Shown here: piece after piece, positions 5,112 through 63,860 of the stretch
Layout of the letters: every line of letters begins with the position of its first letter
Position numbering within the stretch: the stretch's first letter is position 1
Assembly: GCA_951406725.2 (NCBI GenBank)
Contig: OX597814.1
Location: forward strand, 167,834,001 to 167,898,000
From: Octopus vulgaris
Taxonomy: Eukaryota
DNA length: 64,000 nt
Direction: 5' to 3'
Notes under the pieces: model-generated
Told to the model about the DNA's origin: nothing
What the model saw: the letters and a program-made list of their open reading frames with translations, nothing else
The model's database searches: none
Position numbers and translations under genes: made by a program

Positions 5112-5237
5112 TCTGTTGTCTGTCCTAGCAGATCACATGAATGCTGAAATTGTCTCAGGAACTGTCAATTCAAAACAAGATGCTATGGATTACATCACTT
5201 GGACATATTTTTTCCGTCGACTTGTAATGAATCCCAG
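5112..5237 (+). CDS. ASCC3: Internal exon of activating signal cointegrator 1 complex subunit 3 (Ski2-like helicase, second cassette winged-helix region)
   Basis: ttttatttcag| acceptor and AG|gtaagt donor, 126 nt, phase 2-2. Translates (S)[41 protein letters not shown](S), close to the remembered human ASCC3 segment [43 protein letters not shown]. Confidence 0.93.
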
Positions 5238-25681: not shown

Positions 25682-25972
25682 ACATACACTCATACATACA
25701 TACATACATACATACATACATACATACACACACACACATACATACACACACACATACATACATACACACATACATACATACATATACATACATACATACA
25801 TATACATACATACATACACACACACACATACACACACACACAGTATTGAAGCTTGAGAACAATCAGATACATTTGCAACACATCTGTTGAAAATATTATT
25901 GTTCACACACATACATATACATATATACATACAGACAGACAGACAGATAGACACACACACACACACACACAC
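25682..25972. repeat. Compound (CATA)n/(CA)n microsatellite (similar TA/TG/CA tracts at ~19334-19478, 37578-37702, 45640-45708, 47189-47500)
   Basis: Direct inspection. Confidence 0.95.
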
Positions 25973-26029
25973 ATGATCCAGCATGGCCACAACCTCAAGG
26001 CTGAAACATATAAAAGAATAACAGAATAT

Positions 26030-26390
26030 AAATGTGTGCAAAGTACAAGAAATATTAATGCAGTATATGGGGATTGGACAATAAGCGTAAGGCAGTGTCA
26101 ATGGTGGTTCCAGAAATCCCGAGCCATAAACTACAGCATAGAAGACGAGCCTCATCCGGAAAGATCTGTAGAACTCGACAAGGACATCCTGAAAACCCTG
26201 GTGGAACAAAATATCATCGTAACTGTTGAGGAACTAGCAGAGAAGCTTGGATTTGGTCATTCAACCATTCATTGACACCTGTGTGCTATCGGAAAAGTCA
26301 GCAAATTGGGTCAATGGGTTCATCATGAACTTTCCGAGTCTAATTGCATGCAGAGAGTGAATGTATGCTTTTCTTTGCTGTCATATCTCA
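26030..26390 (+). pseudogene. Mariner transposase N-terminal (HTH) fragment
   Basis: STRNINAVYGDWTISVRQCQWWFQK..EDEPHPERS..TVEELAEKLGFGHSTIH*HL..GKVSKLGQWVHHEL (degenerate WVPHEL). Internal stop, no DDD domain. Confidence 0.88.
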
Positions 26391-35936: not shown

Positions 35937-37701
35937 ATTTTAATTCATATTCAATACAAGCTATACAGCTGATAAACCCCTCTCTAATTAGATTACTCAT
36001 CTACCAATGAGCCAGATTGTGTTAGGAAGCACCTCTGTCCCATTTAAAGAAAAACATATGCTGTATTATCAGTTAACAAAGTCAAGGTGTCAGATATTTA
36101 TTTTACATGGTATACTACTTACAAACTAGTTACTTTCTATTATAATAGCGTAGAGTTAAGATTTTGGAGTTTTTTTTTCTCAACCTTTAATAGAATTGTT
36201 TGTTTGTTATACATTATCAACTTAAAACTAGTCTCACCATGTTTGGTCATAAAACTGGTTGCAAGTTACAGTATGGATGCCTGTTGTCAATGCTTAACCA
36301 GTTACTTTCCAATTTGTTGCTACTGTGGTTGTTGTTTAGCACCAGGATTCCAGCTATAACCAGTCTTTCTTTTTTTTTATATATAAAGGACTACATTGTC
36401 CAGTGTGTAGCTTCTTGTGTAAGACTGTAAGATGGGGATTTGGTTGCTATTTCTAGTAACATTGAAGTTCCCTCATTGGAGTACTACTTTACTATATATT
36501 TTGTCTATCACTAGCTTCTCATTTGCTTTGTTCATGCTTCAGGATACCTCTGCATTTAGAAAAAAAATCTCTGACACTTTGATGATTGAAGTACTAGAAA
36601 TAGCTGCCAGATCTCCTTCAGTTACACTCCACCATCTTATAGAAAGCGGGGCACTTGAAGGTGGCGAGCTGGCAGAATCATTAGCATGCCAGGCGAAATG
36701 CTTAGTGGTATTTCATCTGCTGTTACATTCTGAGTTCAAATTCTGCCGAGGTCGACTTTGCCTTTCATCTTTTCAGGGTCGATAAATTAAGTACCAGTTA
36801 CGCACTGGGGTCAATGTAATCAACTTAAGCTCTTTGTCTGTCCTTGTTTTTCCCCTCTATGTTTAGCCCCTTTGTGGCCAATAAAGAAATAAGAAGGCAG
36901 GGCACATTGGACAGTGTAGTTCATGATATCAAAAAATAAGATGATGGATTCATGGCTGAAATGCATTTGATCAGAAGTTTACTTAATGAGAGCTAACCTG
37001 AGGACTAAACAACCTTTAACACCAACATTTGTATTCTTAACTTTACCCTATTCTATGGTGCCTGTCACCTTTCTGTATAATAACATTTGCCAATCCATGG
37101 TACTGAACTTACATACTGTTTTAGATCATGCTCAATGAACTTGTAAGCTGAATAAGACTGTAAACTGTAACCCTGAGGCTTCAGCTTTTTTTGCAATAGC
37201 TCTTTGCAATTACATGATTAGAGCTAAATGATGATAACTGCAACTTGCTGTCTGATTAGAAAGTCCTTACACTAAACACACTACGTGACTCTATGCTAAC
37301 AATACACATCATCACAGAATTGATAAAAATGATATTGCAGAAATAAGCAGGGATGGTAATTTCTATGTAAGGCTAGAGAATATTTTTTGAGTTTCATTCA
37401 GCATGGTTTCAGCTGAAGAGAAGATAATCAATAAGAATAATTGATTTATTTTCAAATACTATATACCTGTTTACCTCAGCTACGCGTGTGTGTATACTGT
37501 CCCATATTAACAGCAGTTCAAAATGACAAATCAAATAAAGATAAAAAACCAGAAGGATTCATGAGACTATGTAATTATGTGTGTGTATGTATGTGTGTCT
37601 GTGTGCATGTATATATGTGTATATATACATGTATATATATGTGTATATACATGCATATATACATATACAAGCGTATATGCGTGTGTGTGTGTGTGTGTGT
37701 G

Positions 37702-38404: not shown

Positions 38405-38425
38405 TTATTTATATACATACATACA

Positions 38426-38643
38426 TACAAGGTGGTGCTGAAAAGTTCTTGGCTTTAAGGGTTTTGCAAAAGACCTGAAGGCTCAACCTGCCAAGTTCTT
38501 TTACAGGGCTTAGAAAAACTGAATGACCACTGCAATAGGTGTGTGAATCTGAGACAGGAATATTTTCAATAAAATCATAATTAACTGGTCCTCCTGTATT
38601 TTCTTTTGCCCAAAGCCAGGAACTTTTTAGCCACTTCCTCATA
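38426..38643 (+). mobile_element. Mariner-derived MITE (further copies at ~59196-59416 and, inverted, ~60328-60548)
   Basis: TIRs gctgaaaagttc(c/t)tggcttt / aaagccaggaactttt, TA-flanked. Internal remnant GLEKLNDHCNRCVNLRQEYFQ* resembles a mariner transposase C-terminus. Confidence 0.8.
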
Positions 38644-38660
38644 CATATTTATATATATAT

Positions 38661-38927
38661 ATTTGTAACAATGAAGTCAAGCCAAGTAATGATATTTTGA
38701 AAGCATTTAATATGTTTCAGACTTTGCATAATATATAATAGGAAATACATTACCCTACACAAGACCTTCTTCAGTTAATGCTTTTTAAAATATTTTAAAG
38801 TGTATTAACTGAAGAAGGTCTTGTGTAAGGGGGTGTATTTCCTATCATATATCATAGACAAATCTGAAACAGACATATTAAATGCTTTCAAATTATCATT
38901 ACTTGCTTTGACTTCATTTTTACAAAT
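38661..38927. repeat. Imperfect spacerless palindrome (~130-bp arms), probably Penelope-derived
   Basis: Centre tttaaaat|attttaaa at 38791/38792. Arms include acacaagaccttcttcagttaat / attaactgaagaaggtcttgtgt and aagtcaagccaagtaatgata / tatcattacttgctttgactt. Confidence 0.85.
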
Positions 38928-39647
38928 TATATGCCTTGATGCAAGCTCAAACTAGCTTCTTCTGACTTCATTTATGCGAACACTCTAATAAGGATTTTGG
39001 TAGTTTGTTGTACCTTGCTTGAGTCAAGAATTCTGATATTGTGCATTGCAAACACAAAATTACTGTTTATATACTCTTCCAACTACTTAACCTGAATTGA
39101 TACCACCTGGTTATGGTTTTCATCCAAAAGATCCATTCCACAACACATGCTGTACCTAGTCATTCGGCTGGCTACCCTCTTGTGCTATGTTTGGTCAGAG
39201 CTGACTGGAGCTATACAACATCAATAACAACCTACTATACATGATTTTTTTTGTTTTTATGTGTGTGTGTGTGTGTGTGTACTGACGTACATATAATATA
39301 TATCTGTCTGTGTGTCTCCCTCCACCCCTTGACAACTGATGTTGGTTTATTCATGTCTCCATGACTTAACAGTTCAACAAAAGAAGTCAATAGAATAAAA
39401 AATTAGTACTGGGGTCAATTGTCCTACTAAAACTCTTCAAGGTAGTGCCCCAGCACAGCTACAGTCCAATGACTGAAACGAGTAAAAGATAAAAGATATG
39501 TGAAATAATCTTTCTCATTATTCATTTCTTAATTGACTACTAGTTAAAAGATATTTGGAGAACAATGCCTGATAAACCTTCTTGACATACAGCATGGTTA
39601 AAAAAAACACTTCTAATTGTTTCTTGTGTTATTTGCTAATATTTATA

Positions 39648-47487: not shown

Positions 47488-50400
47488 TCACACACACACG
47501 TATACTCATGCATATATATAAACATAATCATTTTGTTATAATAAATTTACTAAATAATCTCATTTATTCTACAATGGAATTGATTTGTGACATATTACAG
47601 AAGAAATGCCTACTATGCATTTCACACACATGTTCAAACTTATATATATATGATATTGAACCAATAAAGGGGGCATCTAAATGTTTGCTTGAGCATCTAG
47701 ATATTTCCTGACATAGACTTCTTTGCAGCGAAATCACCTTCAATTCACACTCAGTGATCTTAAATAAAATGAAATTAGATAAAGGATCATTCGATAATGT
47801 ATTCTGTTATATGCCTGGAAGAAAGAAATCAATGGGATAGTCTTGACTGGAACATATTTGACCATATGTCTGCTTTGACTATTTGCTTCCCTAGGGCTAA
47901 TATAAACAACCTGATGTGTGTGTGTGTGTGTGTGTGTGTGTGAACATTCACACACTCACACACACAGACTTTCATTCATTATATAAACACATGCTCAAAT
48001 GCATTTTTTTAAAAACTAAGACAATAAACCTCTAACTCTCTCCATTGTGAAGTGTAAGCTAGAATCAATATATATTTATTGTCATTTCTATCATCTTTTT
48101 AAATTAAAAAAAAATTTACTCGCCAAATTGAGAAATTATTACTTTTTAATTAGCATCTTTGTTCTACCATTTTGTTTTGTTATTGCCATGAATTAGTTCT
48201 TAGTGACCTTATTAGCAAAAATACTTATAGAAACTACATTTTCAATAGTTGCTTTCAATTATGCACTACAACAACAATAATAATATTGATGATGATGATG
48301 ATGATTTCTAAAAATAAGCAAAATTTATGGGGAAGGGCCATAGTCACTTATATTGCCACAGTACTTATTTATTTTATTGATCATGAAAAGGCAAGTGTTA
48401 AAGTTGAAATTAATAATAATAATAATAATGATATTAATTTTTTGATGCAAAGTGAGAGTATTTGATGTTTTGTTAGCATCATATTCTTAATTAGATTAGG
48501 TACATTCAAACATACATAGATACATATAAAGTTACATATTTTAATTACCACCATGTGTATATTTTATATACACATGTGTATATAAAAATATACATGTGTA
48601 TGTTTGCATGCGTGTATGTATATGTATAGATAAATAGATAAAATTCTTAGTAATTAATTATATATACCTACATGTTTACACAGAACAATTTATATAGTTT
48701 CCTTAAGTATACTTATTAAGCTAGTCCGTTGTGTATAATTCTGTTGTATCTTATTCCAAAAATCATATATTTAAAAAAGGGAATCTAAACTACAAAATCT
48801 ATGAAGGAAAATATTTAAAAAATTTGATGCAATAACTAAAGAAATATAAATACCTGAATTAGGGTCTTGGTAAGAAAATATGCATACAACTGTGCAGCCA
48901 ATTTACCGAATATGAAATCAATAAGGAGTCTGCAAAGTTGGGTAAATTGATATTGAAACAAGATGGTTGACAGTTATTGGTTACGTTTTTGCTAAAGACA
49001 CTACTGCTGATGATGTTGCTGCTGCTACTGCTGCGGTCAATGAGTGAATATAATAATAATCTATGGATTTTTGTTGGAATAGGGAAGCAAACAACAATAA
49101 CAACAGAAAAAATGTATTATTTGTAAGATGAATTGTTTATCTATTGAAACATTGAATTCCTCATGTTACTTTTTGTTTATCTTCCATAGTAAAAAAAAAA
49201 AATAGATAAATATACCCAGTAGGTTGTGAAAGATTTTGAACAATCCTATTATTGTGAAGGTGATGGACTGACTCTACAACAATGACATACTTTGAAGAAT
49301 AAAAAGGAGTTAAAAATAAAAACGAAAAAGAAAGCATTTGTACATCACTGTCACTAAGCCCTTTCCATACCAAATATTTGTGCTGACTCACCAGACCTTC
49401 AGTCAGTTTAACTGCAACTTCTGGAACTATCTGTCTATTGTCTTTGTCTGTGGGTTCTTCTCCTTTCACTCATTTCCTGCTCTACTTCCTCTCATTCTCC
49501 AAAAATGTAATTTTAAAGGAGAGTGTTATTAGGGATTCTGTGGATTTCTTTCTCTCTTTCTTTTCCCTTCCTGGTATTTTTTTGCTATATCTCTCCAGTG
49601 ACTTCTCATAATCATTATTCTGCTGCAGCAAGTCAGATACAGTTTATCACTTTTAACCTTCATTCCTAACTTTCAGTCACAATGACTCCATTATGAGAAA
49701 TTCATTTAAGCTGATTTACCAGCTAATAAATAAATATTGTCATGTTGCCTGTTATATCTAGAAAGGAACATTTGGAAATTATTATTCTGTTTAGAAAGTC
49801 TTGTGATTATAAACACTAAACATTAGACTGATAAATGGATTATGGATTTTTACACAGTGCTTGTTATTTTGAAAGCTAACTCAGTACATATGCTTTTAAC
49901 TACATAGTTGATTTTTTTAACAATAAAATCATTTATTGTAATATATGGCTATTTCAAATTTCATTAGTTAGTCACAAATTATCTCTACGTGAAGTTTAAA
50001 TTGTTATATATTTCTAAGACTCAATATTATAGTTATATAGTTATAGAATCTTACCTTTAGGATCGATCTATTTAATACTTAGATTTGAGATTGTATCAGG
50101 GCCATATATAAGATTTTTATATATTTAAAGTCAAGACATGTTTACAATAAAGCAGCAGCCAAAATTCACATACACAAAATAAAGTGGTTAAATATAGGCT
50201 ATTACTGATAACTTCATGTATATATTTTTTGTGTGTTTTTGGAATTTTTATCTAAACATTTATCTTTTACATTAAACGTTTTTGTAATAAGATTTTTTTT
50301 TTCTCTACAATACTAACATTTTTCTTTCTTCCTGTTTACATAAAAATTTGCTTGCTTACATAGTGTATTTACATCAGCATAGTATTGGTCAGAAATGAAA

Positions 50401-55038: not shown

Positions 55039-55128
55039 ATGGACTGTAATTTCAGTAGAGTGGGGCTATTTAGTTATCCTGAATGGACTGTAATTTCAGT
55101 AGAGTGGGGCTATTTAGTTATCCTGAAT
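55039..55128 (+). repeat. Perfect 44-bp tandem duplication
   Basis: atggactgtaatttcagtagagtggggctatttagttatcctga x2. Confidence 0.95.
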
Positions 55129-56779: not shown

Positions 56780-58766
56780 GAAATTATGCTCATGTGACAT
56801 AAATGCAAATTTAATGTACAAATTTGTAATTGAATTATTGAGTATTAATTGAAACGGCTGTAAGAAGCGAAGGTGACCAATTTGTTGATAATGAATAATT
56901 GTTAACTTCCTTGTCTCCATTAACATATACTTATTGTTTTAAGGGAATTTCATGCCCCAACAATACTAGGTATTGAACCAGTATTTCTTTGGATGCAACA
57001 TTCCCTTCACAAGGTTAACATATCCTCTAATTGTGTGTGTGTGTGTTTATGTATATGTTTGACCCCCACCACTGCTTGACAACCAGTGCTGGTGTGTTTA
57101 CATTCCTGTAACTTAGCAGTTCAGCAAAAGAACCAATAGAATAAGTACCAGGCTTTAAACTAAAAATTCTTCAAGGTGATGCCCCAGCATGGCTGCTGTC
57201 TAATAACTGAAACAAGTAAAAGATATAGCATATTGGCACTTGTGGTGTCTAGGCATTTATGTGACAATATCTCACTTTATGTCTATATCTCTATAGAGGA
57301 ACATTAAGATTTCTGTTGTCCATAGCCATAGCTCTTTGAAACTCCTTTCAATGGTACTAAGAGAGGTTATTGTTTAGTCTCAGATCTGACCTGATTGAGC
57401 AAACCTATGCATTCCAATCATGACAATCACACTTTTTTTTTCCGTGTGCCGGTGGCACGTAAAAGCACCCACTACACTCTCAGAGTGGTTGGCGTTAGGA
57501 AGGGCATCCAGCTGTAGAAACTCTGCCAGATCAGATTGGAGTCTGGTGCAGCCATTTGGTTCACCAGACCTCAGTCAAATTGTCCAACCCATGCTAGCAT
57601 GGAAAGCGGACGTTAAACAATGATGATGATGATGTGTGCATCCAGAATCACGTTATCCAATGTATATTTCTCCTTTTTAAGATGGATTTTAGGATTTGGC
57701 TTCTACTTTTAGCAGGTTGAAACCGTATAGGAACTCCCTTATTTTTGGCACAAGGCCAGCACTTTCGGGAGACAGAGTAAGTCCATTACATCGACCCCAG
57801 TGCTCAACTGATACTTATTTTATCAACACTGCAAGGATGAAAGGCAAAGTCAACTGACATAATTTGAACTCAGAACATTAAGACACATGAAATGCCACTA
57901 AGCATTTTGCCCTGTGTGGTAACAATTCTGTCAGCTTGCAGCCTCCTCCTTGTCTAATATTGATACTACTTGGCTACAGTAAAATATTTGAGGTGAAAAA
58001 GCCAGTGGTTAGTTTTAATTATTCCCAACATATTCAATGTGTATTTATGATATAAAACTAATTAGATGTTTTAAAGAAGTTAACATTTTTGTTGATTAGA
58101 CACACTAATGTGTGCTTTCCTATTCTGGTGCAGATACCTTTGGAGAGGAGGAAATTACATATAGTTTTGTGCATAATGAGACCCTACTTAGGAAAATAAT
58201 ATTTAAAGGGTGATGTTTGATATATCAGGGAGAAGACCTGTCTCTTAGTTTTGTACTGAGAGGCCAGAGGAGATGTTGCACTTGGCAACTGTAAAAAAAA
58301 GAAGTGATAGGCTGGGAGAGTTTATCAAAGGAATGTATTAATAGTAGTGGTGGTGATGGTGGCTTTTATGGAAGTGGTGGTGGTGGTAAAATGGGTTTGT
58401 TTTGTTTATGTAGCAAATAATTAAAGGCAGAACAGGAGACAAATATGTTGGTTTTTTTTCATTGGGTAGTGGAAAAAGGTTGTTTTCATACATGTCTGTA
58501 TTTCATATTTTAGTTGATGTTTAACCTTGTTTTTAGATGTTGATTTTTCTTTTCTTTTCTTTTTTGTTTTTTGGTGGAGGGTTATGTTAGAGTTCACTAA
58601 CATTTCACTTTCTGCTAATTTACTGGCCATTTCTTTGAAGAGTTTGATTCCATGTAGTTGGAGTTATTAACTCCATACCTTCCTGTACTGTCAGAGTTGT
58701 TTTACTACAATTGTAACAAATTATAACAGAATTAGTCATTCCATTATACTAAGAAACCAATTATCA

Positions 58767-58795
58767 AAATTTTAAATTCAGAATCCTTTTTTTTA

Positions 58796-58875
<80 letters not shown>

Positions 58876-60923
58876 CCCTCTGGTTTTTGACTTTCTTGAA
58901 GAAATGTTAATTGTTATGAAAATATTGGATAACTACATGTACATAAATGTCACAGTCATAAATATTTTGTCCTGTAAAACTAAGCTCCATAATTAGATTG
59001 AGGATATTTTTCAGCAACTTGGAATACAGATAAAAACTGACTAGTTTCACAATTGTTATGACTCATCAGGACTTGCCACTCCATCCCAAATGCAGAGCTA
59101 TGTATTAAAATGCAAGCAAGACTGTGCTGGTCACAGCTTAATTACTTAATGTTACAAGGTTAATAGTCTAACATTAATTCTTGGATTGGGCAGCATACAA
59201 GGGGGTGCTGAAAAGTTCCTGACTTTAAGGGTATCATGAAAGGCCTGGTTGGAGGCCCAACCTTCCCAGTTCTTTTACTGGGCTTAGAAAAACTGAAGGA
59301 CCACTGCAATAAGTGTGTAAATCTGAAAGGGGAATGTGTTGAATAAAATCATAATTAACTGATCTTCCTGTATTGTCTTTTACTCAAAGCCAGGAACTTT
59401 TCACTGCCTCCACATATAGTGTCCTCAAGCAAGGCATTTTTTCTCTTTTTATGCTGCTCCAGTCTACTCACAGCCAAGTTCTGGTGTAGCCTTCTCTCCC
59501 TCCAGATATTACATCCTGGATACTACACTGGGGAAGTGTGGGAGAACCAAGAAGGTCTGTACCTGCTTGCAAGCACTTAAAAACAATTACGGCATGGTAC
59601 ATGCTACCAAGTCATTCTCAGTTCTGGGTGATGACCATAGATTAAACCAATACAGAGGAGGTTTTGAATAAATATTTATTTATGAGATGCCATATCTATG
59701 TATTTAATGTTACTGTGAAATTAAGTTCAATGGTTACACTAAAGGGAATACTTTTTCAGCTACTTGGAATGAGGACCAAACCAACTATTTTCACCATCAT
59801 TTTGGCTCTTCGATATTTGCTTACTCTCAAGGTGCTAAGTAACTAAAAGTTACTTATTAAATGTAAGCAAAGATTGTCAGACACAACTAAGTAACTTTTA
59901 GTTACTTAGCACCTTGAGAGTAAGCAAATATCGAAGAGCCAAAATGATGGTGAAAATAGTTGGTTTGGTCCTCATTCCAAGTAGCTGAAAAAGTATTCCC
60001 TTTAGTGTAACCATTGAACTTAATTTCACAGTAACATTAAATACATAGATATGGCATCTCATAAATAAATATTTATTCAAAACCTCCTCTGTATTGGTTT
60101 AATCTATGGTCATCACCCAGAACTGAGAATGACTTGGTAGCATGTACCATGCCGTAATTGTTTTTAAGTGCTTGCAAGCAGGTACAGACCTTCTTGGTTC
60201 TCCCACACTTCCCCAGTGTAGTATCCAGGATGTAATATCTGGAGGGAGAGAAGGCTACACCAGAACTTGGCTGTGAGTAGACTGGAGCAGCATAAAAAGA
60301 GAAAAAATGCCTTGCTTGAGGACACTATATGTGGAGGCAGTGAAAAGTTCCTGGCTTTGAGTAAAAGAAAATACAGGAAGATCAGTTAATTATGATTTTA
60401 TTCAACACATTCCCCTTTCAGATTTACACACTTATTGCAGTGGTCCTTCAGTTTTTCTAAGCCCAGTAAAAGAACTGGGAAGGTTGGGCCTCCAACCAGG
60501 CCTTTCATGATACCCTTAAAGTCAGGAACTTTTCAGCACCCCCTTGTATGCTGCCCAATCCAAGAATTAATGTTAGACTATTAACCTTGTAACATTAAGT
60601 AATTAAGCTGTGACCAGCACAGTCTTGCTTGCATTTTAATACATAGCTCTGCATTTGGGATGGAGTGGCAAATCCTGATGAGTCATAACAATTGTGAAAC
60701 TAGTCAGTTTTTATCTGTATTCTAAGTTGCTGAAAAATATCCTCAATCTAATTATGGAGCTTAGTTTTACAGGACAAAATATTTATGACTGTGACATTTA
60801 TGTACATGTAGTTATCCAATATTTTCATAACAATTAACATTTCTTCAAGAAAGTCAAAAACCAGAGGGGGGGGGCAGAGAGAGAGAGAGATAACAAAAAA
60901 AAAGGATTCTGAATTTAAAATTT
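58767..60923. repeat. Long near-perfect inverted duplication (arms 58767-59856 and 59888-60923, 31-nt spacer)
   Basis: Arms are reverse complements over ~1 kb. Identical ORFs at 59664-59846(+) and 59898-60080(-). I saw three substitutions plus differences in and around the (CT)n tract. Confidence 0.97.
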
Positions 60924-63860
60924 CTTTATTATTTTTATTTCTTTTTATTTTAATTTACATATATATTATTTGGAATGCAAGGATGGTTGTATAGTTAAAA
61001 ACTGCCCTTCACAGCCAGCTGATTTCAGGTTTGATCTTGTGGCAGAACACATTATGCAAGTGTATTCTATCAAAGCCTTGTAATTGACATTTGGCAGAGA
61101 AAAATTTGTGCAAAAGTCAATGAATGGACTAAGCACAGATAGCTTAATGGATCAGGTACCAAACATCTAGATGAAAAGCCAACAGTTTATCTTGTTCATG
61201 GCATCTGCTATATTTATGATGCTTAAATCAAAATGGTCTGGTTCACTTGGCTGTAAATAGGTGACAAGTTTAGTTATTTCCATGATAGAGGAAGAGAAAA
61301 CTTTTGAAGAAGATAATGGCAAATCATTTTAGTAATGTGGTAGGAAATACTTTGGGGTATGGATATTCCATGAGGCCATCAAAAGTCAAGATATCAGTTG
61401 ACTGTTCCACCTCACTATATTCTTTTAAAGATTAGAGAAGTAAAGTAGGGAGCTGTTGTGAAACCAAGACAATAATATTCTTTTGATTCTGAGCTTTAGC
61501 AATTTAATTTCTTTTAGACTACTAATGTTCTCACCCCTCTTCTCCTCTAGGAAAAAAATGCCTTTTACAATTTCTCTCCAGAAATGGATGCTAGTTAATC
61601 AGGGGTTGATTAATCGCTTTGATTGTGGAAAAATAAGAAACTGACAGAGTTGGGATAAAACAGATATTTATTGCAAAATCTTTTATAATCATAAATCAGC
61701 ATATTAAGTTTGCTTCTCAACCACATAGTTCCAGGTTCAGTCCCACTGCATGGCACTTTGTGCAAGTGTCTTTTTTGTCGCCTCGGGCCTTTTGAATGAA
61801 TTTGGTTGATGGAAACTGAAAGATGTCTGTTGTATACATATATATGTGGGGTGGTAGTCTGTGTTTGTCCCCTACCACCACTTGACAATGGTGTTGGTGT
61901 GATTATGTGTCCAACAGTTTGGCAAAAGAGACCAGTAGAATAAGAACCAGGTTTAAAAGAACTAAGTACTGGGGTTGATTCATTCAACTAAAATCCTCAA
62001 GGCAGTGCTCCAGTGTGGGCACAGTCTAATGACTGAAACACAGAATTAGAAGAATGCTTTTTTTTTCTTAATCTTAAATACATTACCTGTACTGAATATC
62101 TTTAAACAAGATGCATCATGGAAAATTGGGTGCTTGGTTTGTTGGTTGGTTGGTTGGTTGGTGGGGGGTGCCCCCATTTTTCTACATATTTCTGTTTCCA
62201 TTTTTTATTATGTTTTTATTTTATGTCTCCTGATTACCACTGTTGTATATATGTAATTACACAAACAATTTAGTTGTGTGGCACTAACTTTTTTTTTTTT
62301 TTATGTTAAACATACACATAGTTTTGTACTTGTAATGGTTTCCAATTTGGAAAGCAATCATTTCCTGATATATTAAGTAAATAAGCAATCATGTAATTTG
62401 ATATTAGTTATTATGCAAAACAAAGCCCCTCAGCTACAAAATACAGTCATTAGTCTCCGTGTGAAGAGATTGTGTGTGTGTGTGTGTGTGTGTTGTGTTT
62501 GTGTGTGTGTGTTGTGTTTTATTTATTTATTTTGGCTAATAATATCTGGGTTATTTGTTACATTTTGATGAAACTGATCTTTTTTTTTTTTTTAAACTCA
62601 GTACTAATTGCAGATGCTATTAAAATATTATTTTGCAGATTCCCAATTTCCCCTTCCTACCATGCATTTTCCTTTGCTACTATATCATGTTTTCGTATCA
62701 TATATTAGCTTGATGGTTTTTGTATTGTTGAAATTTCATTTGCTTAGTTATGTGTGTATATATATTTGGTTGTCAAATCTTTTTGCTTGTTACTTTCCCT
62801 TGGGAATTCTCAACTAATTTAATATGTGCTTAATAAGTAAATACATTAAATGCTATCATTTGTCAAATGTTTATCATAATATAAAGTAGGTGGTACTTTA
62901 TCTTGTGCATGCATGGAATGAGAATGCTATTTTGACAAAATAAATATTTCCCATACATTATCTTAATTACTTTTAGGAGTCACTGGTTGCCAATACAAAT
63001 TAATCTACAGTGAGAATATATTAGTTGAATGTTTCTACACATACAGGCATTTTATTTACCAATGCAATGCCTGTTCTTTAGTCTTCATCTAATTTCTACA
63101 GATATTTCAGTAAAAGCTATTCTTAAATTTCTATTAATGAAATCCATTCCAGGAAAATTAGGATTAAAAAAATGCCAAGTTGCTACATTCTTATGTATAA
63201 AAATAAAGTTATTGTGTTTGAGATTTGGTTTAGTTGTTGAGGGTGTATTGTTTTTGTAAGAAGTATTTTGACAGATATTTTTAGTTGTTTATTAATTTAT
63301 ATAGAATAAAGAAACAGTGAAATCCTTTTTAATGAGTTCTTCGGTGGAATGAAACATTTATTATCATGCCAAAGACTATATTTTCAGTTTAATTTATGCA
63401 ACATTCCAAGGAATGTAAAGACAAAAGATTTAATAGAAAAGAAAGTCATGTTAAATCATTCTGTTAGAATGCTACTAAACTAGTTACTCATTCTGTGGAT
63501 ATCTTTTCACCCACTGGGGTGCCTTCAGATTCATACAAAGCATATAGGGCAGGTTAACCTGGCAGATCCCATCCTTTTGCAGACTGTACTGAAGAAAGGA
63601 TGTGAAGTCAGTATTTAAAGCCAATAAAATACTTTCTCCTTTATAGCTTACCCTCTCAACATATGGGGATGAACTGCACCTTCTTAATGTACCAATTTAC
63701 ATCTAGGTGTACTAGGCTTTGAAAGTTTAAGTATTTTTCCTTGAGGTACAAATATGAACCCTTTGATCAGCCAACTCCTTGTGGCTGAAACTGTCAATTA
63801 TATTAACCACTTAAATGTTTATTTTATCTTTTATACACACATTGTATGTTTGTTATAAAC

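What the first reader, a model, noticed from the sequence alone, without database searches (positions are those of the whole stretch)
58767..60923. 2.15-kb near-perfect palindrome: potential ~1-kb intronic dsRNA
Seen: arms of ~1090 and ~1036 bp with a 31-nt spacer. They contain apparently unique sequence plus a MITE, so this is a local inverted duplication rather than one transposon. Three substitutions were noticed (gacttg/gatttg, cttgga/cttaga, ttgtct/ttttct) and the (CT)n tract is much shorter in the right arm. Known: long hairpins are ADAR and Dicer substrates, and coleoids edit RNA heavily. Inference: a hyper-editing or endo-siRNA locus in the ASCC3 pre-mRNA, and a cruciform-prone fragile site.
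Basis: partly seen in the sequence, partly recalled or inferred. Interest (0 to 1): 0.7.

Follow-up and report, generated by a model that had tools for sequence, protein, structure and literature searches.

The report
Young 1-kb inverted duplication in octopus
This octopus sequence holds a near-perfect 2.15-kb DNA palindrome where related animals carry only one arm, so it is likely a recent DNA-copying accident that would fold into a long RNA hairpin if transcribed, with no function shown.

Summary
The palindrome is in the window: arms 58767-59856 and 59888-60923, 31-nt spacer, 3 substitutions in the 983-nt core. Contigs from 4 public runs show the ancestral state. In two related organisms one contig runs arm 1 -> 120 letters -> right flank with no second arm; a second sample of the window's species label fits the same allele. 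That allele appears to carry a 5-nt inverted repeat (ACTTA...TAAGT) exactly at the fold-back point. So arm 2 is a 1,036-nt reverse-complement copy that replaced about 35-40 nt: a double template switch (type 3-2-1-4), known in kind but about 8 times longer than the longest case in the great-ape catalogue. The best-matching run has about twice the usual depth on the arms and letters of both arms, so the palindrome is probably real (about 0.8); neither new junction was seen directly. ASCC3-intron position is inferred. No RNA evidence; molluscs reportedly lack a dedicated siRNA pathway, and a 31-nt spacer weakens the fragile-site idea. The scan noted similar template-switch palindromes in other genomes. 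Ordinary mechanism; modest value as a possibly segregating editing substrate.

The parts
58767..59856 (+). Arm 1: the original sequence (ancestral orientation)
   Evidence: Contigs X4 record 17 and X7 record 24 join this orientation to the right flank; alignment
59857..59887 (.). 31-nt single-copy spacer (loop); genomic, covered by contigs of 4 of 4 runs
   Evidence: no match to a recalled 9-nt SMRTbell adapter motif
59852..59856 (+). ACTTA: left half of the 5-nt inverted repeat at the fold-back point (switch point 2)
   Evidence: sequence
59888..59892 (+). TAAGT: right half of the 5-nt inverted repeat, inferred to be present in the single-arm allele (switch point 1)
   Evidence: bin-coverage arithmetic: X2 and X4 both match through 59892; chance 3 of 2,692 nearby positions
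59888..60923 (-). Arm 2: derived reverse-complement copy of 58767-59856, replacing about 35-40 ancestral nt
   Evidence: 120 letters lie between 59856 and 60968 in X4 and X7 against 1,111 in the window
59836..59856 (.). Perfect 9-bp mini-hairpin (3-nt loop) at the inner end of arm 1; possible stall site (inference)
58798..58873 (+). (CT)38 tract near the outer end of arm 1; 55 nt shorter and mutated in arm 2 (60872-60895)
59198..59414 (.). High-copy MITE with TA on both sides and ~19-nt imperfect terminal inverted repeats (Tc1/mariner-type anatomy, label recalled); mirrored at 60330-60546 in arm 2
   Evidence: loose-end consensus and summed depth 1e5-2e6
60919..60924 (.). Outer junction (switch points 3/4); AATTT 60919-60923 is a possible second microhomology
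   Evidence: X2 record 16 begins 49 letters before 60968; letters not shown, indirect
5112..5237 (+). Only ASCC3 exon in the window, followed by a GT donor; the palindrome lies 53.5 kb downstream in the presumed intron

Best explanation
The palindrome is a 1,036-nt reverse-complement copy of the adjacent DNA that related animals lack, and it likely arose recently in one replication or repair accident with two template switches and likely has no selected function. Shown: the single-arm allele exists in relatives, with 120 letters where the window has 1,111. Inferred steps: (1) a 3' end at ...CAAC-TAAGT paired with ACTTA 31 nt upstream, next to a 9-bp mini-hairpin; (2) the polymerase copied 1 kb backwards, slipped in the (CT)38 tract (55 nt lost, a cluster of changes) and came off about 30 nt later; (3) it returned to the original template 35-40 nt past the first switch, possibly through AATTT. 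The allele probably still segregates in the species. If ASCC3 pre-mRNA runs through it, it would fold into a ~1-kb duplex (predicted -1,907 kcal/mol, 1,028 arm-to-arm pairs) that ADAR would likely edit as a by-product before the intron is degraded.
For:: X4 record 17 (1,305 nt) and X7 record 24 (1,376 nt) each carry one arm and the right flank on one contig, 120 letters apart. X2, another sample of label A, leaves the window sequence after 59892; its two contigs overlap by a computed 30 nt = k-1 under the same 120-letter interval. Both arms share every state in which organisms B and C differ (7-8 substitutions and a 14-nt indel in 59888-60369), so the copy postdates that split. Arm-arm 0.31% against 1.5-1.8% to B/C and 0.83% to X2's flank. 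Real, not artefact (hints): X1 arm contigs at depth 115 and 121 against a median of 61.8 for 19 other contigs (1.86x, 1.96x), and 2.0-2.1x against a locus where X4 gives 0.65-0.83x and X7 0.98x. X1 record 8 mixes an arm-1 letter (60672) and an arm-2 letter (60723). X1 record 1 stops at 60368, the break predicted from the third arm difference. Mechanism precedents.
Against: No contig was seen to cross either new junction. The tool skipped the low-complexity letters around the outer junction, and the MITE crowded out the joint and loose-end tables. X1 record 1 ends 62 letters past the arm: a pure hairpin allows 61 and a strict graph would break at the arm end (Logan methods), while the single-arm path in X2 gives 101, so neither fits exactly. 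The tool warns that contig depth is not copy number; the comparison contigs were picked by the tool, not at random. X1 may be the sample the window came from; only about 80% of it was read and its right flank is absent. The letters of the lost 35-40 nt were not seen, so both microhomologies rest on arithmetic (2 of 3 single-arm runs for TAAGT; X7 cannot show it). Mixed letters in X1 could also be two haplotypes.
Confidence: 0.7

Rival explanations
1. Assembly artefact: a fold-back chimeric long read, or two haplotypes joined head to head, built the second arm; the animal has one arm per chromosome.
For: No junction-spanning contig seen; X1 record 1 runs through the arm end without the predicted break and is 1 letter longer than a pure hairpin allows. 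All three other runs show the single-arm allele. Arm differences (0.31%) are within allelic range (0.83% in X2's flank), and the (CT)n lengths differ as alleles would.
Against: Arm depth in X1 is about 2x other X1 contigs, whereas it is 0.65-1.2x in X4 and X7. The structure returns to the correct right flank with only 35-40 nt lost, which needs a second switch that simple read fold-backs do not make (own knowledge). The spacer is genomic in 4 of 4 runs. X2's contig breaks 5 nt inside the outer junction, as a heterozygote would give (but X2 has no break at 60369 or at the arm end).
Confidence: 0.17
2. A functional hairpin-RNA locus: the duplex is processed into small RNAs (against the MITE family or other loci) or regulates ASCC3 processing, and is kept by selection.
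For: Near-perfect predicted duplex with a 481-bp uninterrupted stem; contains a MITE of order 1e4 copies; template switches have founded intronic miRNAs in primates (PMC10710096 abstract); X1's depth fits two copies on both chromosomes.
Against: Absent from 2 of 2 relatives laid and from at least one allele of the same species label; arms diverge without compensatory changes (3 of 3 core changes one-sided); no dedicated siRNA Dicer or Argonaute reported in molluscs; 53.5 kb from the only ASCC3 exon found; 69 other inverted pairs >=100 nt already lie in the window; no Rfam match.
Confidence: 0.06
3. Remnant of a larger event (ODIRA inverted triplication or breakage-fusion-bridge) later trimmed to one palindromic junction.
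For: The 5-nt inverted repeat is in the 4-8-nt range of ODIRA junctions, and such palindromes are eroded by secondary events (bioRxiv 2023.09.19.558550 passages).
Against: No third copy or second palindromic junction in the window; both flanks are kept almost to the base; the spacing of 31 nt is below the 40-80 nt optimum given there.
Confidence: 0.05
4. A foldback-type transposon whose long terminal inverted repeats are the arms.
For: Long inverted arms with a short interior resemble foldback elements (recalled).
Against: No target-site duplication; one arm is already in place in the 'empty' allele; most of the arm is at single-locus depth in X4 and X7.
Confidence: 0.02

Closest known systems
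Template-switch mutation, four-point model, type 3-2-1-4 (Walker et al. 2021, PMC7954356; passages and part of section 8 read)
   Same: Reverse-complement copy of nearby upstream DNA replaces a short stretch and leaves one inverted repeat with a spacer; switch order 3-2-1-4, one of their two commonest patterns.
   Different: Copied fragment 1,036 nt against median 12 and maximum 128 nt in their gold-standard set (their search was local, so long events were not sought).
Fold-back inverted duplications in humans (Hermetz et al. 2014, PMC3907307; passages read)
   Same: Single-copy spacer between the arms and 2-8 bp inverted microhomology at the spacer edge.
   Different: Those are megabase events next to terminal deletions with spacers of 766-70,466 bp; this is 1 kb, interstitial, 31-nt spacer, both flanks kept.
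ODIRA inverted triplications (bioRxiv 10.1101/2023.09.19.558550; passages read)
   Same: Switch at a 4-8-nt interrupted inverted repeat gives a palindromic junction.
   Different: ODIRA gives three copies and two palindromic junctions around an origin; here two copies and one.
Template-switch-born intronic hairpins and de novo miRNAs (PMC10710096; abstract read); Drosophila hpRNA loci (PMC10317233, search listing only)
   Same: An instant, perfectly paired hairpin inside a presumed intron.
   Different: About 30 times longer than a miRNA stem; no expression or processing shown; host clade reportedly lacks the siRNA pathway that hpRNAs use.

Membership tests
Four-point template-switch mutation (3-2-1-4) | Ancestral allele lacks the insert; insert is the reverse complement of nearby sequence | tested here: met
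   X4 record 17, X7 record 24
Four-point template-switch mutation (3-2-1-4) | Switch order 3<2<1<4 on the ancestor with return to the same locus | tested here: met
   3=58767, 2=59856, 1=59887-59892, 4 about 60919-60924; point 4 only to within a few nt
Four-point template-switch mutation (3-2-1-4) | Short range (2->3 fragment of tens of nt; maximum 128 catalogued) | tested here: not met
   1,036 nt; works like it, but is outside the short-range class
Four-point template-switch mutation (3-2-1-4) | One event at one replication fork | not testable with these tools
   Copying from the homologue or during break repair would look the same
Fold-back inverted duplication (inv-dup-del) | Single-copy spacer between the arms | tested here: met
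   31 nt
Fold-back inverted duplication (inv-dup-del) | 2-8 bp inverted microhomology at the spacer edge in the ancestor | tested here: met
   5 nt by coverage arithmetic in X2 and X4; letters not displayed
Fold-back inverted duplication (inv-dup-del) | Adjacent terminal deletion or dicentric intermediate | tested here: not met
   Right flank kept; only about 35-40 nt lost
ODIRA inverted triplication | Three copies with two palindromic junctions | tested here: not met
   Self-comparison of the window shows two copies
ODIRA inverted triplication | Replication origin inside the amplified segment | not testable with these tools
   none
Foldback / long-TIR DNA transposon | Target-site duplication | tested here: not met
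   Outer flanks unrelated
Foldback / long-TIR DNA transposon | Empty site lacks both arms; copies elsewhere | tested here: not met
   One arm present in the empty allele, single-locus depth in X4 and X7; no whole genome to scan
hpRNA / endo-siRNA locus | Long fold-back RNA structure | tested here: met
   Predicted only: -1,907 kcal/mol, 1,028 arm-to-arm pairs
hpRNA / endo-siRNA locus | Transcribed through both arms | tested here: inconclusive
   One ASCC3 exon 53.5 kb upstream, next exon outside the window; no RNA run laid
hpRNA / endo-siRNA locus | Phased 21-22-nt products via a siRNA Dicer and Argonaute | not testable with these tools
   Literature reports no such pathway in molluscs (PMC12479628)
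ADAR hyper-edited repeat duplex | Clustered A-to-G changes in RNA against DNA of the same animal | not testable with these tools
   Only DNA-type contigs were laid

The most novel reading that the evidence does not exclude
A kilobase-long, essentially perfect hairpin born in one template switch is segregating inside an octopus ASCC3 intron and already acts: it is hyper-edited and either alters ASCC3 transcript processing allele-specifically or yields small RNAs against a ~10,000-copy MITE family in a clade thought to lack siRNAs. That would be a hairpin-RNA gene caught at birth, with the ancestral allele as a built-in control.
Probability: 0.08. Interest if true: 0.65.

Novelty: new member of a known kind. 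Interest (0 to 1): 0.28.

Why it matters
As it stands it is a clean worked example of how a 1-kb palindrome forms: the ancestral allele, the lost stretch and a priming microhomology can all be read off relatives, at a size between catalogued short template switches (up to 128 nt) and large fold-back duplications. If it is polymorphic and transcribed, heterozygous animals give an allele-matched test of what coleoid ADARs and small-RNA enzymes do with a perfect long duplex. Nothing here shows a function, and the locus class is known.

Tried and rejected
No whole genome is held, so copy number and similar palindromes genome-wide could not be counted. Run search: 24 runs listed, 20 hold part of the stretch, no RNA holder listed (no evidence either way); 4 of 24 were laid, and the small-share runs, including the guessed RNA runs, were not. 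The stretch laid held the spacer, arm 2 and the right flank only, so the left flank and the (CT)38 tract were not examined. My low likeness setting (88) let the MITE swamp the joint and loose-end tables. Parts without cover in X1, X2 and X7 are not used as evidence. X4 was left out of the depth medians because most of its listed contigs are multi-copy; a second comparison locus at 61088 gave arm ratios of 2.15 (X1), 1.28 (X2), 1.10 (X7) but 0.15 for X4 (hand arithmetic, table 3). Metagenome scan for part of the spacer: 0 matches. Rfam: 0 matches in 57000-62500. PDB search with a 26-residue frame in the MITE: no transposase match, best E 8.9, so 'mariner-derived' rests on TA flanks and terminal repeats only. 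ASCC3 C-terminal profile from 38 proteins: best score 6.4 bits among 3,409 ORFs. Scan look-ups by place and by sequence: nothing. Paper searches for an octopus palindrome (5 of 6 listed, 12 of 24 listed) showed no title or abstract start on this locus; the library is partial and supplements were not read. Rejected: transposon, adapter read-through, ODIRA triplication.

Full report
Observation. The 983-nt core differs at 3 positions (59021, 59072, 59375 in arm 1). The outer 100 nt carry 3 further substitutions, a 1-nt insertion and a (CT)n tract 55 nt shorter in arm 2. The centre folds with z = -22.7; of 70 inverted pairs of 100 nt or more in the window, the next best is 92.6% over 188 nt. There is no target-site duplication. 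Each arm holds a 217-nt MITE with TA on both sides; its summed contig depth of 1e5-2e6 against 9-60 for single contigs points to the order of 1e4 copies. Rfam finds nothing.

Setting. Exons of a CUB-domain gene on the minus strand (15744-13615) are 100% identical in protein to an Octopus sinensis model in 4 of 5 pieces, and 80-96% to O. bimaculoides, so the window is from the O. vulgaris/sinensis group. One ASCC3 exon lies at 5112-5237 on the plus strand. A profile of the ASCC3 part that should follow, from 38 proteins, finds nothing among 3,409 ORFs. If the gene continues, the palindrome lies in an intron of more than 58 kb, 53.5 kb from that exon. This is an inference; the next exon was not seen.

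Ancestral allele. I laid the contigs of 4 of 24 listed runs on 59812-61690. In organism B (X4, record 17) and organism C (X7, record 24) a single contig holds the arm in arm-1 orientation and then the right flank from 60968, with 120 letters between 59856 and 60968 in both; the window has 1,111 there. In X2, a second sample of label A, a 583-nt contig runs arm -> spacer -> 59892 and then 65 other letters, and the flank contig starts 49 letters before 60968; under the same 120-letter interval these overlap by 30 nt, the k-1 of the assembly (k = 31, Logan methods section read). So arm 1 is original, arm 2 is the insert, net gain 991 nt, and about 35-40 nt were lost. Both arms share all letters in which B and C differ, including a 14-nt indel at 60272, so the copy was made after that split (or homogenised since). 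Arm-arm difference is 0.31%, against 1.5-1.8% to B/C and 0.83% to X2's flank. If the A versus B/C split were the 2.5-million-year vulgaris-sinensis split (PMC10700109 passages), which I did not establish, the age would be roughly 0.45 million years or less. Relative to the relatives, arm 1 has one derived change (59375) and arm 2 two (60672, 60723).

Junctions. Bin coverage shows that X2 and X4 both match the window through 59892, 5 nt into arm 2 (18 nt in the bin after removing the listed piece). The single-arm allele therefore appears to read TAAGT after the spacer, the reverse complement of ACTTA at 59852-59856. Such a 5-nt repeat at this spacing occurs at 3 of 2,692 nearby positions. X7 cannot show it because a contig is counted once per place. 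A perfect 9-bp hairpin sits at 59836-59856. X2's flank contig begins at the equivalent of 60919, 5 nt (AATTT) inside the outer junction; this is what a second 5-nt microhomology in a heterozygote would give, but a break in AT-rich sequence is an alternative, and the letters were not shown.

Is the palindrome real? For: in X1, the best holder (0.91 of words; possibly the source sample) the two arm contigs have depth 115 and 121 against a median of 61.8 for 19 other contigs read from the tables (1.86x and 1.96x; two copies on both chromosomes predict 1.88x and 1.81x). Against one shared other locus the arm ratios are 2.0-2.1 (X1), 1.39 (X2), 0.65-0.83 (X4), 0.98 (X7). X1 record 8 combines an arm-1 letter at 60672 with an arm-2 letter at 60723, and record 1 stops at 60368, exactly where a strict graph of the window allele breaks. 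Against: the tool says depth is not copy number and chose the contigs shown; two haplotypes would also give mixed letters; no contig was seen across either new junction; X1 record 1 runs into the spacer and ends 62 letters past the arm, where a pure hairpin allows 61 and the X2-type path gives 101 (unexplained); X1's right flank was not among the 80% read. I put real at about 0.8. X2 may be heterozygous (depth 1.3-1.45x, break at 60919), but it lacks the breaks at 60369 and at the arm end, so this is open.

Mechanism. Shown: insert, orientation, approximate loss. Inferred: priming at the 5-nt inverted repeat, backward synthesis of 1,036 nt, slippage in (CT)38 shortly before dissociation, and return 35-40 nt beyond the first switch. 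In the four-point notation this is type 3-2-1-4, which can arise within one strand (PMC7954356); the catalogued fragments there have median 12 and maximum 128 nt. Single-copy spacer plus 2-8 bp inverted microhomology is the signature of fold-back duplications (PMC3907307), and 4-8-nt repeats seed ODIRA junctions, but the terminal deletion and the triplication that define those classes are absent. Copying from the homologous chromosome cannot be excluded.

Function. As RNA the 2,157 nt are predicted to fold at -1,907 kcal/mol with 1,028 arm-to-arm pairs and a 481-bp unbroken stem. In squid, ubiquitous editing falls mainly in 3' UTRs, introns and repeats (PMC9068888), so editing is likely if this is transcribed; no RNA was examined. 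The endo-siRNA reading is weak: a survey of 32 molluscs including O. bimaculoides found no siRNA Dicer or Argonaute and at least fivefold fewer Dicer-type read pairs, though it allows rare cell types (PMC12479628). Fragility is probably modest: in yeast Alu palindromes breaks fell 80% and fork arrest disappeared from a 9-bp spacer on, while interrupted palindromes still raised gross rearrangements (PMC8053094). All 3 core changes are one-sided, as neutral decay would give, though 3 changes have little power.

Verdict. Probably real, young, probably polymorphic inverted duplication made by a known copying error; new member of a known kind, unusually long for it and unusually well reconstructed. 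Earlier scan notes in other genomes reached a similar reading for shorter or older palindromes and gave the lead to PMC10710096 (abstract read); they are not independent support. Two paper searches showed nothing on this locus; supplements were not read. Interest 0.28.

Noticed in passing
window 38655-38932: A second, older palindrome (arms about 135 nt, about 85% alike, short spacer) starts a few bases after the other copy of the same MITE (38424-38648). Both MITE sites in the window are at or in a palindrome; could be a separate fold-back element in a TA run or a MITE-adjacent duplication. No look-alike in the scan index.
   Followed up: partly
window 15744-12198, minus strand: Secreted or membrane CUB-domain gene nested antisense in the presumed ASCC3 intron; matches O. 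sinensis LOC115215197 and O. bimaculoides LOC106884421.
   Followed up: partly
window 5112-5237: 3 of 3 mollusc ASCC3 models printed (Dreissena, Mizuhopecten, Physella) end shortly after this same exon, hinting at a conserved very long intron; the search was limited to proteins up to 2,000 residues, which favours truncated models.
   Followed up: no
window 55039-55126: Perfect 44-nt tandem duplication.
   Followed up: no
window 59429-59680 and 60064-60315: Part of the 'unique' arm draws contigs of other loci in 4 of 4 runs: an unidentified low-copy repeat (table 2).
   Followed up: no
window 58972-59067 vs 59713-59811: Weak 70% direct similarity over 100 nt within the arm (E 5e-4).
   Followed up: no
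window 25850-26275, plus strand: Open frame whose end resembles a mariner-type transposase helix-turn-helix region (resemblance recalled, not tested).
   Followed up: no
window 36423-36785 (+) and 49161-49469 (-): Two open frames with exon-like, non-repetitive stretches that do not match ASCC3; not identified.
   Followed up: no
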